From a virus (Duplodnaviria > Heunggongvirae > Uroviricota > Caudoviricetes): a DNA stretch of 64,000 nucleotides. The stretch is from positions 115,637-179,636 of the IMG/VR virus record IMGVR_UViG_3300014204_000115; one strand, given 5' to 3'. The position numbers were made by a program, and so were the translations under genes. Positions within the stretch are counted from its first letter, which is position 1. Every line of letters starts with the position of its first letter. The notes under the pieces were generated by a model. It worked only from the letters and a program-made list of their open reading frames with translations. It searched no databases and was not told the origin of the DNA. Below, piece after piece: positions 53,386-56,782 of the stretch.

Positions 53386-53568
53386 ATGACAAGATCTGAA
53401 TTTATAGAATGTTTAAAAAATATTAAATCTGAAAAAGAAGATCCAGTTGTGGTTATTCAAATATATGGCGGAGATTTATTAGAATTAATAAATGTAAATC
53501 TTGAAAGAGATACATATGAAAATGAACATGAAGAGAAAGTTTTTGATGAAATTATTATTATTTCATAA
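53386..53568 (+). CDS. hypothetical acidic protein (60 aa)
   Basis: Small ORF. Confidence 0.4.
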   Translation: MTRSEFIECLKNIKSEKEDPVVVIQIYGGDLLELINVNLERDTYENEHEEKVFDEIIIIS

Positions 53569-53582
53569 TAAAATTTAGAAAT

Positions 53583-53777
53583 ATGAAAACAAAAATTAGA
53601 TATGAAAATGTTCGGAAAAGAATTATAAAATTTGAAATTGATGATGATTCTTATGAAACAAATTGTCCAGAACGTCCAGATTCAGAAATAATGGTAGGAA
53701 GTTATCTTTGTACTAAATGTAGAAATTATATAGGTCAAATTGATGGAAATCTTCATTGTTTTGTATTTAAAGAATAG
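53583..53777 (+). CDS. zinc-ribbon protein (64 aa)
   Basis: CPERP...CTKCRNY...HC. Confidence 0.4.
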   Translation: MKTKIRYENVRKRIIKFEIDDDSYETNCPERPDSEIMVGSYLCTKCRNYIGQIDGNLHCFVFKE

Positions 53778-53788
53778 GAGTTTATATT

Positions 53789-54151
53789 ATGAAAACTAAA
53801 CAAGATTTTATTACAAATTCAAGTTCAACCTCTTTTATCATAGCAGATAAATCAGGAAAATTAGATAAAATTTTAGTTAAAATTAATGAAAATCCAGAAA
53901 TAATTGTAAATATTTTTGAGATTTTAACTTTTGAAGATATTAGTCATAATGCATCTGATTATGGTAAAAATATCAAAGAAAAATATCATATTGATCAAAT
54001 AGTTGATAATGGTGGAAAAATTTATGAATTTATAGCTGGCGACCAATCAGGATTATTAGAAGCTGGTTTTTGTAATTATGGAATTTACGAAGAAGAAATT
54101 TCTGAAAATAAGGAAATAATTGAAATTATAAAAGGAGAAGGTGGATATTGA
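53789..54151 (+). CDS. paralog family member E (120 aa): MKTKQDFITNSSSTSF, detached fifth copy
   Basis: Same N-terminal module as the 48613-49974 tandem genes. RBS TAGGAGTTTATATTATG. Confidence 0.6.
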   Translation: MKTKQDFITNSSSTSFIIADKSGKLDKILVKINENPEIIVNIFEILTFEDISHNASDYGKNIKEKYHIDQIVDNGGKIYEFIAGDQSGLLEAGFCNYGIYEEEISENKEIIEIIKGEGGY

Positions 54152-54160
54152 TTTTTAAAT

Positions 54161-54487
54161 ATGAGACAATCTCAAGGATTTAAATCAACTAGAAAATATA
54201 AAGATATTAGAAGTTTTATTTGTATTTTATTTGGACAACCAGATTATACAGATCATATTTCAAATGGTGTTAGTTTTAAATGGTATTTACATAAAGTTAT
54301 AAAATATATACCAATAAGTCATAGAGGAAAAATTGTAGAATTTGCTTTACATTTATTATCTAATAAAAATATTAAAGCTGAATGTAAAATTTTAAGATAC
54401 AGTAATGAAATAAATGATGCTAATTTATTAAGTCTTTATCACACAAATCCTAGAGACAGTTTTAGAATTTTAGTGAGGAATCAATGA
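54161..54487 (+). CDS. hypothetical protein (108 aa)
   Basis: ORF in tiling. Confidence 0.45.
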   Translation: MRQSQGFKSTRKYKDIRSFICILFGQPDYTDHISNGVSFKWYLHKVIKYIPISHRGKIVEFALHLLSNKNIKAECKILRYSNEINDANLLSLYHTNPRDSFRILVRNQ

Positions 54488-54807
54488 AAACAAAAATATT
54501 TTATAGTATTGAAAATTGTGGAGATGGAAGCGCCTATCCAATATTTATGGAATCTGAAGAATTATGTATGATTGAACAAGAATTCATGGATGAAGGTTGG
54601 GGAGAACCTTGCATTGGTCATATTACAATTGAACATGATACACCAATTAAGATTAAAAATGAAATAAAAACAGTGGACGAAGTAATTGAAGAAACCGAAT
54701 TAAGAATAAAAGAATCTTGTGTATCAGAAAATAGCAAACATTTTCTTAGAAAAAAATTAGAAGAACTAAATAAATTAAAAAATCAAATGGTAATAGATAA
54801 TGAATAA
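54484..54807 (+). CDS. hypothetical acidic protein (107 aa) with three Cys
   Basis: ATGA overlap. C..C..C spaced through the N-terminal half. Confidence 0.45.
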   Translation: MKTKIFYSIENCGDGSAYPIFMESEELCMIEQEFMDEGWGEPCIGHITIEHDTPIKIKNEIKTVDEVIEETELRIKESCVSENSKHFLRKKLEELNKLKNQMVIDNE

Positions 54808-55834
54808 GATTCATATAGTTAATTGGTTATTAACTAGAAGATGTAATCTTCATTGTGATTATTGTAGAATTGTAAAAAATTATAAAACAAAACCATTATT
54901 ATATCCAGATATGAAATATTATATTGAAAATGAAATGTCTAGTCAAACTATTATTAATGGATTAGAAAAAATTAAAAATCATAATCCTAATGCATTTCAT
55001 ATTTTCTATGGCGGTGAACCTTTATTAAGGTTAGATCTTTTTGAAATTATAAATTATTGTAACAAAAATGATATTCATTATACAATAATTAGTAATAATA
55101 CTGAGAGAGTTCAACCTTTAATGAAAGAATTATTAAGAAAAGTAGATTATATTGAAGGTTTTACCGCTTCTATAGATCCAATTATTTATGATAAAAATAA
55201 ACATATGACTGATACATTTAAAAAGAGTTTAGCTGGTTTTAAAAAACTTAAAGAATATTCAGATATTATTAAGGATGTAGTTGCAGAAATAACTGTAACT
55301 AATGATAATCTTGAATATCTTTATCCATTAGTATCTGAGTTATCTGATTTTGGAATAAATAGTGATATAACATTTGTTGATATTTCTAAGTCTAAATATT
55401 ATGATTTTTCTGATGTTGAGGATGATTCTATTTTAGTAAGAAAAAGTCCAGAGTTAAAGGAAATATTAGATAAAATTATTAGCGAAAAACTTAATGTTCA
55501 TATGGCAGAAACTCTATTACCAATAATATATGAGAATCTTCCAAGTGAATATGATTGTAAATTAGAAAATGATTTTCATAATTTATGTGTAGATGCAAAT
55601 GGTAGCATAAGATTATGTTTGAGAATTAGAGGAACTGCTATTCCAGAAAACTTTAATCTCTCTAATCTATTTGATGAAAATAATAATCTAAATCAATATC
55701 TTAAATATTCAATTAATTATGATAAAAAAAATTATTGTTTAAAATGTAATCATAGTTGTTACATGATGTCAGAGTTAATATCTAAGGGAGAAGATAATTC
55801 TAATAATTTAATTCATACAGAAGTAAGGAAATAA
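54800..55834 (+). CDS. radical SAM enzyme with C-terminal auxiliary Cys cluster (SPASM/twitch- or MoaA-like)
   Basis: N-terminal TRRCNLHCDYC (CxxxCxxC). SAM-binding glycine-rich IFYGGEPLL. C-terminal NLCVDANGSIRLCLR and YCLKCNHSCYMM. Confidence 0.75.
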   Translation: MNKIHIVNWLLTRRCNLHCDYCRIVKNYKTKPLLYPDMKYYIENEMSSQTIINGLEKIKNHNPNAFHIFYGGEPLLRLDLFEIINYCNKNDIHYTIISNNTERVQPLMKELLRKVDYIEGFTASIDPIIYDKNKHMTDTFKKSLAGFKKLKEYSDIIKDVVAEITVTNDNLEYLYPLVSELSDFGINSDITFVDISKSKYYDFSDVEDDSILVRKSPELKEILDKIISEKLNVHMAETLLPIIYENLPSEYDCKLENDFHNLCVDANGSIRLCLRIRGTAIPENFNLSNLFDENNNLNQYLKYSINYDKKNYCLKCNHSCYMMSELISKGEDNSNNLIHTEVRK

Positions 55835-55869
55835 AATAATATTAAAAACTTAAAAAGAAAAGAGGGTAT

Positions 55870-56178
55870 ATGAGATTATTTAGAGTTTATAGATTTAGAG
55901 CTTGTCATTGCGATAGAGAAGAATTTCCAGAAGAAATATTAATTCAAGGAAATAGTCCAGAAGAAATAGATAAAATTATTGAAAAAAGAAGAGAAGAATA
56001 TGAATATTCAGATGATTCTGAAAATTTAATAGATTTTGGAGACGAGCATCAACTTCAAGAAATTCTTTTCTTTGATGATGGTGTAGAAAATATTATTGAA
56101 AATGATAAGTTTAAAATTCTAAGTGAAGATGAACTATGTGAAGAGTTTCTAAATTTGAGAGATAAGAATGAGATCTGA
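55870..56178 (+). CDS. hypothetical acidic protein (102 aa)
   Basis: RBS AAGAGGGTATATG. N-terminal RACHCDRE. Confidence 0.45.
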   Translation: MRLFRVYRFRACHCDREEFPEEILIQGNSPEEIDKIIEKRREEYEYSDDSENLIDFGDEHQLQEILFFDDGVENIIENDKFKILSEDELCEEFLNLRDKNEI

Positions 56179-56782
56179 AGATGCTCAAAAGATTTATCAA
56201 AAAAGAAAAGAACAAAAAGAAAATTTAGATAAATATCATCATCCAAAAGAAAAAATTGAGCAATTAAATAGATTATTAGGAGATAAAAGTTTTAATAAAA
56301 ATTATAAGATTTTAGAACTATTTTGCGGTCATGGAAATTTAACAACAGAATATACAAAATATGGTATTGTTTCATCTTTTGATAAAATTTGTGGAGATGG
56401 TGATAGTTATAGTTTATTTCATGGTTTAATTAATAAAAAATTGGAATATGATTTAATTGATTTAGATCCTTATGGATATCCATGTAGGTTTTTTCCAGAT
56501 ATTTTTCTATTAATACATAATGGAATTTTAATTGTTACATTTTGTAAAAATAGTAAACCAAATGCATGGACTCAACAACTATTAAAGAGTTATTTTGGAT
56601 CTAAAAAACCATCAAAAGATCAAATCATAAAAACAATTTGTAATGAAGGTTTGAAACATTGGAGGGTTGTTAAATTAATAGAATGTATAGATTTAGAAAA
56701 AGTATTTAGATTTGCGTTTTCAGTTGAAAGAGTTCATGCAGCAAAATTTTGCGGAACTTCAAATCTTGGAAGAAGAAATTAA
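56168..56782 (+). CDS. SAM-dependent methyltransferase-like protein (small amino-MTase/RsmD-like core)
   Basis: Motif I ILELFCGHGNLT (h-h-D/E-h-F-x-G-x-G). About 50 aa later comes LIDLDPYGYP, resembling the (D/N)PP(Y/F) motif IV of N6A/N4C/N2G methyltransferases with one Pro missing. Confidence 0.45.
   Translation: MRSEDAQKIYQKRKEQKENLDKYHHPKEKIEQLNRLLGDKSFNKNYKILELFCGHGNLTTEYTKYGIVSSFDKICGDGDSYSLFHGLINKKLEYDLIDLDPYGYPCRFFPDIFLLIHNGILIVTFCKNSKPNAWTQQLLKSYFGSKKPSKDQIIKTICNEGLKHWRVVKLIECIDLEKVFRFAFSVERVHAAKFCGTSNLGRRN

What the first reader, a model, noticed from the sequence alone, without database searches (positions are those of the whole stretch)
53386..56782. Radical-SAM enzyme with auxiliary Cys cluster, flanked by tiny Cys/acidic proteins, paralog E and a small SAM-methyltransferase-like gene
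54800-55834 has the canonical CxxxCxxC (CNLHCDYC), a GGEP SAM-binding motif and extra C-terminal cysteines (C-x10-C and C-x2-C-x3-C). This is the layout of SPASM/twitch peptide-modifying maturases and of MoaA; it is too long for QueE or NrdG. Upstream lie a zinc-ribbon protein, paralog E of the DFVTNSSS family and two about 107-aa proteins. Downstream lie a 102-aa acidic protein and 56168-56782 with a GxGxG motif I and a D-P-Y-G motif IV-like element. Together with the QueD/PTPS-family gene at 46773 this could be a nucleic-acid or cofactor modification pathway (a pterin/Moco-like or hypermodified base), or a RiPP-like peptide maturation cassette. Neither is a standard T4-like module.
Basis: partly seen in the sequence, partly recalled or inferred. 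Interest (0 to 1): 0.6.

Follow-up and report, generated by a model that had tools for sequence, protein, structure and literature searches.

The report
Phage twitch radical-SAM enzyme, deazaguanine-linked
The radical-SAM gene is real and is a core gene of an uncultured group of large phages, most of its small neighbours are strain-specific passengers rather than a peptide-maturation cassette, and its relatives in other phages sit inside 7-deazaguanine DNA-modification gene clusters, which hints at an undescribed step in phage DNA base modification.

Summary
The ORFs and motifs are present as described, with small corrections. The gene at 54800-55834 encodes a 344-aa radical-SAM enzyme with a one-cluster "twitch" auxiliary domain. 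Its invariant cysteines are C253-x14-G-x4-C273 and C313-x2-C316-x3-C320. It is not a 7-Cys SPASM protein, and it is not MoaA, QueE, NrdG or viperin.

It defines a phage-restricted family. That family is a core gene of a low-GC, distantly T4-like clade with a fixed gene order: SbcD-SbcC-[variable slot]-rSAM-WYL_2(T4 31.1-like)-...-JAB-ThiF.

The flanking ORFs p60, p64, p107 and p102 have no homolog in about 60 related loci. The 204-aa ORF does have a class-I methyltransferase fold (RNA-MTase-like, with a DxDPYG motif), but it occurs in only 4 of 50 relatives. It lies in a 965-bp insertion between the rSAM and WYL_2. The RiPP-cassette reading is therefore rejected.

The "modified base" reading gains indirect support:
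- About 19 sister loci place the homologous twitch rSAM inside FolE-QueD-QueE-QueC clusters, usually overlapping a QueC-like gene.
- An intermediate member sits between a Gat-QueC and a QueE.
- One in-family phage also encodes a QueE.
- QueD lies upstream in 29 of 36 in-family loci.

The chemistry is unknown, and no paper I found describes this enzyme.

The parts
54800..55834 (+). Twitch-domain radical-SAM enzyme (344 aa). This is the conserved core of the finding.
46773..47171 (+). QueD (6-carboxy-tetrahydropterin synthase type PTPS). It is the only other 7-deazaguanine-pathway gene in the window, and its role as a pathway partner is inferred.
   Evidence: Pfam PTPS scores E 7e-30. It carries the canonical QueD motif C-x3-H-G-H (RACQYLHGH), as that motif is defined in PMC10516641. 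A QueD homolog lies upstream of the rSAM in 29 of the 36 in-family loci that have at least 7 kb of upstream flank.
56841..57155 (+). WYL_2 / T4 gene 31.1-like SH3-barrel protein. It is the invariant downstream neighbour of the rSAM, but a functional link is unproven.
   Evidence: Pfam WYL_2 scores 45.6 bits against a cut-off of 26.7. It follows the rSAM in 49 of 50 distinct loci and abuts it directly in 34 of 49 (median gap 4 nt). It is homologous to T4 31.1, which is widespread in T4-like phages that lack this rSAM.
56168..56782 (+). p204: an accessory class-I SAM-methyltransferase-fold protein (RNA-MTase-like, DxDPYG motif) inserted between the rSAM and WYL_2.
55870..56178 (+). p102: an acidic ORF (pI 4.3). 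It is strain-specific and forms part of the 965-bp insertion between the rSAM and WYL_2.
   Evidence: It has no homolog in any related locus and no family hit.
54484..54807 (+). p107: an acidic ORF with 4 Cys that overlaps the rSAM start by 8 nt. It is strain-specific.
   Evidence: It has no homolog in any related locus and only sub-threshold PHROG hits.
54161..54487 (+). p108: a basic small protein that recurs upstream of the rSAM in a subset of relatives.
   Evidence: Homologs lie directly upstream of the rSAM in L007/L008, L011/L012, L013 and L015. In L004/L016 it is fused to a DFxTNSSS domain.
53789..54151 (+). p120: the fifth copy of the DF[VI]TNSSS paralog family. It is not specific to the rSAM neighbourhood.
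   Evidence: It clusters with the copies at 48613-49974. It has no Pfam or PHROG hit.
53386..53777 (+). p60 and p64 (a 4-Cys zinc-ribbon-like ORF). Both are strain-specific small ORFs.
   Evidence: Neither has a homolog in any related locus, and only sub-threshold family hits were found.

Best explanation
The gene at 54800-55834 encodes a phage-specific radical-SAM enzyme with one auxiliary [4Fe-4S] cluster in a C-terminal twitch domain. It is a core gene of an uncultured clade of low-GC, distantly T4-like large phages, and it sits in the replication, recombination and nucleotide-metabolism part of the genome.

Shown:
- Its fold class.
- Its invariant residues.
- Its restriction to phages.
- Its fixed position in the gene order SbcD-SbcC-[variable slot]-rSAM-WYL_2.
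- The lack of conservation of the small flanking ORFs.

Inferred:
- It acts on a small purine-derived substrate, namely a 7-deazaguanine-pathway base or nucleotide downstream of the QueD product, or such a base already in nucleic acid. It does not act on a peptide.
- SAM bound to the CxxxCxxC cluster is cleaved to a 5'-deoxyadenosyl radical that abstracts a hydrogen from the substrate.
- The auxiliary cluster (ligands C253, C273, C313, C316) anchors the substrate or shuttles an electron, as it does in MoaA or BtrN.
- The product feeds a guanine-replacing DNA modification that protects the phage genome.
- The enzyme is an additional tailoring step, not the QueE step, because sister phages and one in-family phage encode a separate QueE.
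- The phage QueD at 46773 boosts precursor supply, and the remaining steps come from the host or from parts of the genome not seen here.
- p204 is an optional methyltransferase carried by a minority of strains in an insertion hotspot. The other small ORFs are passengers.
For: Fold and class:
- The best PDB hit of the family profile is MoaA, which uses GTP.
- The rSAM core starts at residue 6, so there is no N-terminal RRE domain.
- There are five invariant C-terminal Cys. Four of them (C253, C273, C313, C316) are universal, including in the sister families.

Phage restriction:
- Only 3 hits were found in genomes of 185,579 species, all on MAG contigs with the phage backbone.
- The family comprises 116 clusters at 50% identity with E<=1e-30.

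Link to deazaguanine pathways:
- In about 19 distinct sister loci (23-34% identity, same Cys pattern) the twitch rSAM lies within 8 kb of FolE, QueE, QueD and a QueC-like gene.
- It overlaps or abuts the QueC(-like) gene in L045, L046, L048, L052 and L127, and in L047 the QueC-like gene follows after a 195-nt gap.
- L047's other rSAM is a true QueE (118 bits).
- The intermediate L127 (34.5% identical, 287 bits, GC 26%) lies between a Gat-QueC and a QueE-like gene, next to a dNMP kinase.
- An in-family contig (rSAM 440 bits) encodes a QueE-like gene about 23 kb upstream of its twitch rSAM.
- QueD with the catalytic CxxxHGH motif is upstream in 29 of 36 in-family loci.

Neighbours are not conserved.
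Against: - In the window's own clade no FolE, QueC, QueE or DpdA lies within 8 kb of the rSAM in any of 50 loci.
- The window (64 kb) plus 10 kb upstream has only QueD.
- No DNA transglycosylase was found, and about 105 kb of the contig was not seen.
- The window family differs from its sisters at several of its own invariant positions (E163, T165, D194, H234), so its function may have diverged.
- The second intermediate type (the L121 group) has no clear deazaguanine genes nearby.
- The QueD gene is 7.6 kb away in a fully syntenic core genome, so proximity alone proves little.
- No chemistry was tested.
Confidence: 0.45

Rival explanations
1. The enzyme is a nucleotide- or sugar-nucleotide-modifying twitch rSAM unrelated to deazaguanines. 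It might perform a BlsE/DesII/AprD4-like decarboxylation, dehydration or oxidation on a nucleoside sugar. It might instead perform a MoaA- or viperin-like reaction on an NTP, either for another DNA modification or for counter-defence.
For: - The best structural match is BlsE (a cytosyl-glucuronate decarboxylase), and DesII, viperin and MoaA are also high in the list.
- Sister loci contain GT2 glycosyltransferases and an SDR adjacent to the rSAM.
- The gene sits among nucleotide-metabolism genes: RNR and dNMP kinase.
- No FolE, QueE or QueC lies near it in its own clade.
Against: - The consistent and tight pairing with QueC(-like) genes, and the presence of FolE, QueD and QueE in about 19 sister loci, points specifically to deazapurines.
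- The rSAM of intermediate L127 is preceded directly by a Gat-QueC and followed, one 252-aa ORF later, by a QueE-like gene.
- QueD is conserved upstream in the clade.
Confidence: 0.25
2. The enzyme is a protein-modifying rSAM. Its substrate would be the invariably adjacent WYL_2 (T4 31.1-like) protein or a component of the downstream JAB/ThiF ubiquitin-like module. The analogy is anSME, which acts on folded proteins.
For: - WYL_2 follows the rSAM in 49 of 50 loci, usually with a 4-nt gap.
- The p105/p116-p847-JAB-ThiF block is conserved just downstream.
- anSME and peptide maturases are among the structural neighbours.
Against: - 31.1-like genes occur in 690 cultured T4-like phages that lack this rSAM.
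- Insertions of 0.3-2.3 kb, including homing endonucleases, split the pair in 15 of 49 loci.
- Sister and intermediate rSAMs have no WYL_2, JAB or ThiF nearby, so the adjacency is explained by conserved core-genome order.
Confidence: 0.12
3. This is a RiPP-like cassette, as in the reader's alternative. The rSAM would mature one of the small Cys-rich or acidic ORFs next to it (p64, p107, p102), and p204 would methylate the product.
For: - The small ORFs are tightly packed with, or overlap, the rSAM.
- The top NCBIfam hit is the PapB ranthipeptide maturase, at 60.8 bits.
Against: - p60, p64, p107 and p102 have no homolog in any of about 60 related loci, although the rSAM is 55-75% conserved there.
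- There is no RRE domain.
- The PapB score is far below its cut-off of 340.
- Only 5 of the 7 SPASM cysteines are present.
- p204 occurs in only 4 of 50 relatives.
Confidence: 0.04
4. The enzyme is a non-orthologous replacement of QueE. In QueD-only phages such as this one, the twitch rSAM itself would convert the QueD product CPH4 into a 7-deazapurine.
For: - Within 74 kb the window phage has QueD and this rSAM but no QueE.
- CPH4 has no known fate other than an rSAM-catalysed ring contraction (established knowledge of the preQ0 pathway, as summarised in PMC10516641).
Against: - Sister loci, the intermediate L127 and one in-family phage all encode a separate QueE-like enzyme alongside the twitch rSAM.
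- The host may supply QueE.
Confidence: 0.1

Closest known systems
Twitch-domain radical-SAM enzymes acting on small molecules (BlsE, MoaA, BtrN)
   Same: - A partial TIM-barrel rSAM core with CxxxCxxC and GGEP.
- A C-terminal beta-hairpin motif C-x14-G-x4-C plus a downstream CxxC, predicted to bind one auxiliary [4Fe-4S] cluster.
- A length of about 330-345 aa with no RRE domain.
   Different: - Only 13-17% identical.
- Scores far below every curated family cut-off (MoaA 32 against 284).
- The Cys spacing differs from MoaA's CxxCx13C.
- An extra invariant fifth Cys (C320) and a conserved H339/R343 tail.
- Found only in phages.
- The substrate is unknown.
Phage 7-deazaguanine DNA-modification systems (FolE, QueD, QueE, QueC/Gat-QueC, QueF, DpdA1-4, DpdL/M/N; PMC10516641)
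   Same: - The window encodes a canonical QueD.
- Homologs of the rSAM in other phages are embedded in FolE-QueD-QueE-QueC clusters.
- The genomic setting among replication and nucleotide-metabolism genes matches.
   Different: - No twitch-type second rSAM is part of the described toolkit.
- The window lacks FolE, QueE, QueC and a recognisable DpdA.
- The modification, if there is one, has not been observed.
RaSEA, the radical-SAM partner of ArcS in archaeosine synthesis (PMC11298593)
   Same: It is a precedent for a second rSAM enzyme, besides QueE, that acts downstream of preQ0 together with a partner encoded next to it. The sister twitch rSAMs are similarly paired with QueC-like genes.
   Different: No homology to RaSEA was shown here. 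The partner is QueC-like or Gat-QueC rather than ArcS. In the window's clade the adjacent gene is a 31.1-like SH3-barrel protein instead.
rSAM/SPASM RiPP maturases (PapB, SkfB, SuiB, CteB)
   Different: There is no RRE domain, there are 5 rather than 7 auxiliary Cys, and there is no conserved precursor peptide gene.
Trm1 / RlmI / RsmD-type class-I RNA methyltransferases (for p204)
   Different: At 204 aa it has no RNA-binding accessory domains. It scores below the Pfam cut-off (20 against 27 bits). Only 7 homologs are known, all in this phage slot.

Membership tests
Radical SAM superfamily | CxxxCxxC cluster motif, a GGE SAM-binding motif, and a Pfam PF04055 match above the gathering score | tested here: met
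   C15/C19/C22 and G71-G72-E73 are invariant in 116 homologs. PF04055 scores 55.7 bits against a cut-off of 29.5.
Twitch-domain rSAM subgroup | A C-terminal C-x9-15-G-x4-C hairpin plus further Cys that give one fully or partly ligated auxiliary cluster, with a fold matching solved twitch enzymes | tested here: met
Full SPASM domain rSAM | The seven-cysteine motif C-x9-15-G-x4-C ... C-x2-C-x5-C-x3-C ... C, which binds two auxiliary clusters | tested here: not met
   Only five C-terminal Cys are conserved, with spacing C-x2-C-x3-C. The Pfam SPASM domain was not detected.
MoaA (GTP 3',8-cyclase) | A score above the NCBIfam equivalog cut-off, a C-terminal CxxCx13C cluster motif, and a C-terminal Gly-Gly tail | tested here: not met
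   TIGR02666 scores 32.1 bits against a cut-off of 284. The Cys spacing differs. The protein ends ...LIHTEVRK, with no GG.
QueE (7-carboxy-7-deazaguanine synthase) | A match to the QueE equivalog models, about 210-250 aa, and no auxiliary cluster | tested here: not met
rSAM RiPP maturase cassette | An RRE or leader-binding domain, and a conserved precursor peptide gene adjacent | tested here: not met
   The rSAM core starts at residue 6. The adjacent small ORFs have no homologs in about 60 related loci.
Viperin / NrdG / PFL-AE / HemN (housekeeping or antiviral rSAMs) | A score above the family cut-off and a matching architecture | tested here: not met
Phage 7-deazaguanine DNA-modification system | preQ0-pathway genes (FolE, QueD, QueE, QueC) encoded by the phage | tested here: inconclusive
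   QueD is present with the CxxxHGH motif. FolE, QueE and QueC are absent from the 64-kb window and from 10 kb upstream. About 105 kb of the contig was not seen. One in-family relative has a QueE.
Phage 7-deazaguanine DNA-modification system | A DpdA-type DNA transglycosylase | tested here: inconclusive
   No TGT-family Pfam hit was found in the window. DpdA3 and DpdA4 are known to need HHpred-level sensitivity (PMC10516641), which was not available here.
Phage 7-deazaguanine DNA-modification system | A modified base detectable in virion DNA | not testable with these tools
   This requires LC-MS/MS of nucleosides.
Class-I SAM-dependent methyltransferase (p204) | A seven-stranded Rossmann-like fold, a glycine-rich motif I, and an acidic or DPPY-type motif IV | tested here: met
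WYL_2 / T4 gp31.1 family (56841-57155) | A Pfam PF10902 match above the gathering score | tested here: met
   It scores 45.6 bits against a cut-off of 26.7. tblastn hits genes annotated as 31.1 in T4-like phages.

The most novel reading that the evidence does not exclude
This twitch rSAM lineage catalyses a so-far undescribed radical step on a 7-deazapurine (or on its pterin precursor) and so yields a new guanine-replacing base in phage DNA. In QueD-only phages such as this one, it may even provide an alternative route from CPH4 that bypasses or replaces QueE and QueC.
Probability: 0.3. Interest if true: 0.8.

Novelty: new variant of a known kind. Interest (0 to 1): 0.6.

Why it matters
Phage DNA base modifications are a main counter-measure against restriction and other host defences, and they are a source of new enzymology. 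The described 7-deazaguanine toolkit contains only one radical-SAM enzyme, QueE.

This work finds a second, phage-restricted twitch rSAM. It is tightly paired with QueC-like genes in about 20 clusters, and it is a core gene in a whole clade of large uncultured phages. That predicts an unrecognised deazapurine derivative or pathway branch. It also gives concrete genes to express and test.

The analysis also shows that the striking local "cassette" in this window is mostly an insertion hotspot filled with strain-specific ORFs. That should temper RiPP-style readings of similar phage loci.

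Tried and rejected
- Cultured-phage searches (blastn and tblastn) with the region, the rSAM and two sister rSAMs found nothing.
- Two small-protein families that recur next to the rSAM in relatives were searched for in the window. Both family A (about 115 aa, downstream) and family C (about 108 aa, after SbcC) are absent.
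- WYL_2, p847 and p338 were tested as possible pathway partners or a transglycosylase:
  - p338 is an Rpn11-like JAMM protease.
  - p847 and WYL_2 have no PDB relative.
  - None of these genes accompanies the sister rSAMs.
  - WYL_2 is the common T4 31.1 gene.
- QueC-rSAM fusions were sought in the sister family. None was listed, and only an rSAM-MTase fusion appeared (P0316). Its MTase domain is unrelated in sequence to p204.
- Extra members of the intermediate subfamily were sought. Only L121-like loci were found, and their context is uninformative.
- A FolE scan meant to find the gene on in-family contigs saturated with closer relatives. The QueC alignment was too divergent to scan with.
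- A look-up of the window's last gene, to extend downstream, failed. The 10 kb upstream holds only replication genes.
- The promoter and terminator scan was uninformative in this AT-rich DNA.
- AFDB50 was unavailable. BFVD gave only low-TM matches.

Full report
**1. Observation**

The window is about 25% GC with essentially all genes on the + strand. It is a large phage genome carrying:
- a two-subunit RNAP
- an RNR with an intein
- topoisomerase II
- a RecA-like protein
- SbcCD-like gp47/gp46
- dNMP kinase

It is only distantly T4-like. The SbcD protein is 28% identical to those of T4-like phages. Neither the region nor the rSAM matches any of 50,697 deposited phage records.

They are densely packed. 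Three junctions overlap and no terminator-like site was found.

The rSAM (54800-55834, 344 aa) has CNLHCDYC, GGEP and C-terminal cysteines. Two details need correction:
- The first C-terminal group is C253-x9-C263-x9-C273, and the middle Cys is not conserved.
- The MTase-like ORF has GxG rather than GxGxG.

**2. What the rSAM is**

- **Sequence models.** Pfam gives Radical_SAM at E 8.7e-15. NCBIfam gives only sub-threshold hits to SPASM/twitch families and MoaA: PapB 60.8 against a cut-off of 340, NirJ, AhbD, viperin 49 against 180, and MoaA 32 against 284.
- **Invariant residues.** A 116-sequence alignment shows these as invariant: C15/C19/C22, GGE, C87, N99, S124/D126, K142, E163, D194, Y201-D202-F203, H234, C253-x14-G268-x4-C273, R271/R275, D308, C313-x2-C316-x3-C320, H339 and R343. 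That makes five auxiliary Cys, not the seven of SPASM.
- **Likely cluster ligands.** More distant relatives keep only C253, C273, C313 and C316. These four probably ligate a single auxiliary [4Fe-4S] cluster, which is a BtrN-style twitch domain.
- **Profile against the PDB.** The family profile's best PDB sequence hit is MoaA, E 4e-6.
- **Domain layout.** The rSAM core begins at residue 6, so there is no RRE domain.

**3. Distribution**

- The family has 930 word-index hits. The top 120 are all at least 53% identical, almost all full length at about 340-357 aa, and many lie on 150-270 kb contigs.
- An exhaustive profile search finds 116 clusters (50% identity) at E<=1e-30 and 288 at E<=1e-10.
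- Among genomes of 185,579 prokaryotic species there are three hits. All are on MAG contigs that carry the phage backbone.
- The family is therefore phage-restricted.

**4. Neighbourhood in the window's own clade**

I compared contexts from 12 look-ups and about 50 viral or metagenomic loci. I clustered the neighbours and scored them with HMMs.

Over 50 distinct family members, neighbours occur as follows:

| Neighbour | Loci |
|---|---|
| WYL_2 after the rSAM | 49/50 |
| ThiF | 46 |
| p847 | 45 |
| p338 | 45 |
| SbcC upstream | 44 |
| RhoN | 42 |
| QueD upstream | 29 of 36 loci with enough flank |
| FolE / QueE / QueC within 8 kb | 0 |

- WYL_2 abuts the rSAM directly in 34 of 49 loci, with a median gap of 4 nt.
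- In the other 15, including the window, 0.3-2.3 kb is inserted. The inserts often contain GIY-YIG or HNH/NUMOD3 homing endonucleases.
- The window's insertion is 965 bp and holds p102 and p204.
- p60, p64, p107 and p102 have no homolog in any related locus.
- p108 recurs upstream in a subset of loci, and p120 belongs to a dispersed paralog family.

The cassette suggested by the local gene packing is therefore not conserved. The SbcC-WYL_2 interval is a variable slot with the rSAM as its only fixed gene.

**5. p204**

- It has only seven database homologs. Those whose context could be read lie in the same slot.
- This fits the invariant D-x-D-P-Y-G motif and the weak Pfam TRM hit on that stretch.
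- The MTase observation therefore holds, but the gene is an accessory found in 4 of 50 relatives.
- MTases do recur near this rSAM lineage. L047 has a Methyltransf_11 gene two genes downstream. P0316 is a sister rSAM fused to a C-terminal MTase-like domain. These MTases are not similar to p204 in sequence.

**6. The downstream conserved genes**

- WYL_2 is a homolog of T4 gene 31.1 and occurs in 690 cultured phages that lack this rSAM.
- p338 is an intact JAMM protease of the Rpn11 type.
- It is followed by an E1-like ThiF.
- p847 and WYL_2 have no solved relative.
- None of these genes accompanies the more distant rSAM relatives. Their linkage to the rSAM is best explained by conserved core-genome order.

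**7. The functional lead**

*Sister family*
- Viral contigs contain a sister family that is 23-34% identical over the full length, scores 93-108 bits against the window-family HMM, and has the same Cys pattern.
- In the six first-found sister loci, five place the twitch rSAM beside a QueC-family gene. It overlaps or abuts that gene in L045, L046, L048 and L052. In L047 the gene follows after a 195-nt gap. In L053 the adjacent genes are an SDR and ThyX instead.
- FolE, QueD and a small rSAM lie a few kb upstream in five of the six (L052, which has little upstream sequence, lacks them).
- The small rSAM of L047 is a genuine QueE (118 bits to QueE models). The twitch rSAMs themselves resemble MoaA best, at 50-60 bits and below cut-off.
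- A second scan raised the count to about 19 distinct sister loci. Nearly all have FolE, QueE, QueD and a QueC-like gene within 8 kb.

*Intermediate subfamily*
- L127 has GC 26% and is 34.5% identical to the window enzyme. It scores 287 bits and keeps all five auxiliary Cys and most family invariants.
- Its gene order is Gat-QueC, twitch rSAM, a 252-aa unknown, a QueE-like rSAM, then a dNMP kinase.
- Its relatives of the L121 type have an uninformative context.

*Within the window's own family*
- Contig IMGVR_UViG_3300033146_002242 has an rSAM scoring 440 bits.
- It encodes a QueE-like protein about 23 kb upstream of that rSAM, next to the RNAP genes. The only PDB hits of that protein are QueE structures.
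- The window has no QueE, FolE or QueC anywhere in its 64 kb, including the syntenic position, or in the 10 kb upstream.

*QueD and KVP40*
- The window's QueD has the catalytic CxxxHGH motif. That motif distinguishes QueD from the DpdL paralog (PMC10516641).
- In cultured phage KVP40 the 31.1-like gene directly follows a folE / QueF-like / QueC / GATase cluster. This may simply reflect a shared insertion hotspot.

**8. Literature**

- The 2023 survey of phage 7-deazaguanine pathways lists FolE, QueD, QueE, QueC/QueC*, Gat-QueC, QueF, ArcS2, DpdA1-4, DpdL, DpdM (DUF3109) and DpdN. It mentions radical SAM only once and describes no second, twitch-type rSAM.
- Searches for later work found none.
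- RaSEA, the rSAM partner of ArcS in archaeosine synthesis, is a precedent for an rSAM acting after preQ0. No homology to it was shown here.

**9. Interpretation**

Shown:
- The gene encodes a twitch rSAM of an undescribed, phage-restricted family.
- It is a core gene of its clade.
- The local small ORFs are not conserved partners.
- p204 is an accessory MTase-fold protein.

Inferred, at about 45% confidence:
- The enzyme acts on a purine-derived small substrate of the 7-deazaguanine branch, as an extra tailoring step for DNA base modification.
- QueD is the phage's contribution to precursor supply.

The main weakness is that, in the window's clade, the other pathway genes and a transglycosylase were not found near the rSAM or anywhere in the 74 kb examined.

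Alternatives considered:
- another nucleotide or sugar-nucleotide reaction (25%)
- a protein substrate such as WYL_2 or the ubiquitin-like module (12%)
- replacement of QueE (10%)
- the RiPP cassette (4%)

**10. Verdict**

The twitch/MoaA-like layout, the MTase fold and a possible modified-base pathway stand. The RiPP cassette, the Moco idea and the supposed linkage to the small neighbours do not.
- I rate it a new variant of a known kind, of moderate to high interest.
- It predicts a testable, undescribed enzyme of phage DNA modification.

Noticed in passing
window 57838-62100 and 63615-64000: A conserved block is present in about 45 of 50 relatives. It comprises an 847-aa unknown protein, p338 with an intact JAMM/MPN+ motif (E82, H128-x-H130-x7-S138-x2-D141; Rpn11-like), an E1-like ThiF, a Rho_N-domain protein and a second ThiF. 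It looks like a phage-encoded ubiquitin-like conjugation and deconjugation module.
   Followed up: partly
window 48613-49974 and 53789-54151: Five paralogs share an N-terminal K-x-DF[VI]TNSSS motif and have no Pfam or PHROG match. In relatives L004 (7302-7997) and L096 this domain is fused to the p108-type protein.
   Followed up: partly
L185 (Vibrio phage KVP40, record 69644-75289): The T4 31.1-like (WYL_2) gene KVP40.0126 directly follows folE, a 459-aa unknown, a QueF-like gene, exsB (QueC) and a GATase gene. In a cultured phage, therefore, the same small gene that follows the window's rSAM also borders a deazaguanine cluster.
   Followed up: partly
L004 1890-3008; L007 551-1690: Close relatives carry an adenylosuccinate-synthetase-family gene (possibly PurZ-like) next to SbcD. 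This hints that some members of the clade may also make 2-aminoadenine. No such gene is in the window.
   Followed up: no
L001 9266-9733; L005 9028-10011; L006 3542-4141 and 9037-9642; L013 2210-3232: GIY-YIG and NUMOD3/HNH homing endonucleases occupy the SbcC-rSAM-WYL_2 slot in relatives, which marks it as an insertion hotspot.
   Followed up: partly
P0316 (604 aa, metagenomic): A sister-type twitch rSAM is fused to a C-terminal class-I methyltransferase-like domain (PF13489). This is a Rosetta-stone hint that methylation accompanies this rSAM chemistry in some phages.
   Followed up: partly
BFVD entry A0A8S5QS09 (Myoviridae sp. ctgXL3): A 571-aa protein annotated as 7-cyano-7-deazaguanine synthase aligns with the rSAM model over about 376 columns. 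It may be a QueC-rSAM fusion, but the sequence could not be retrieved here.
   Followed up: no
L047 6639-7631: GTP cyclohydrolase I is fused to a phosphoribosyltransferase domain in a sister deazaguanine cluster. This suggests a nucleotide-level route rather than, or as well as, a base-exchange route.
   Followed up: no
window 7356-10718: The ribonucleotide reductase large subunit is interrupted by an intein with an HNH endonuclease.
   Followed up: no
window 23389-23829; 36105-36971; 6889-7311; 38283-39632: The window also holds a PTH2 peptidyl-tRNA hydrolase, an SPFH/Band-7 protein, a LigD-type 3'-phosphoesterase and a DUF2201 metallopeptidase/VWA protein. These are unusual accessory genes for a T4-like backbone.
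   Followed up: no
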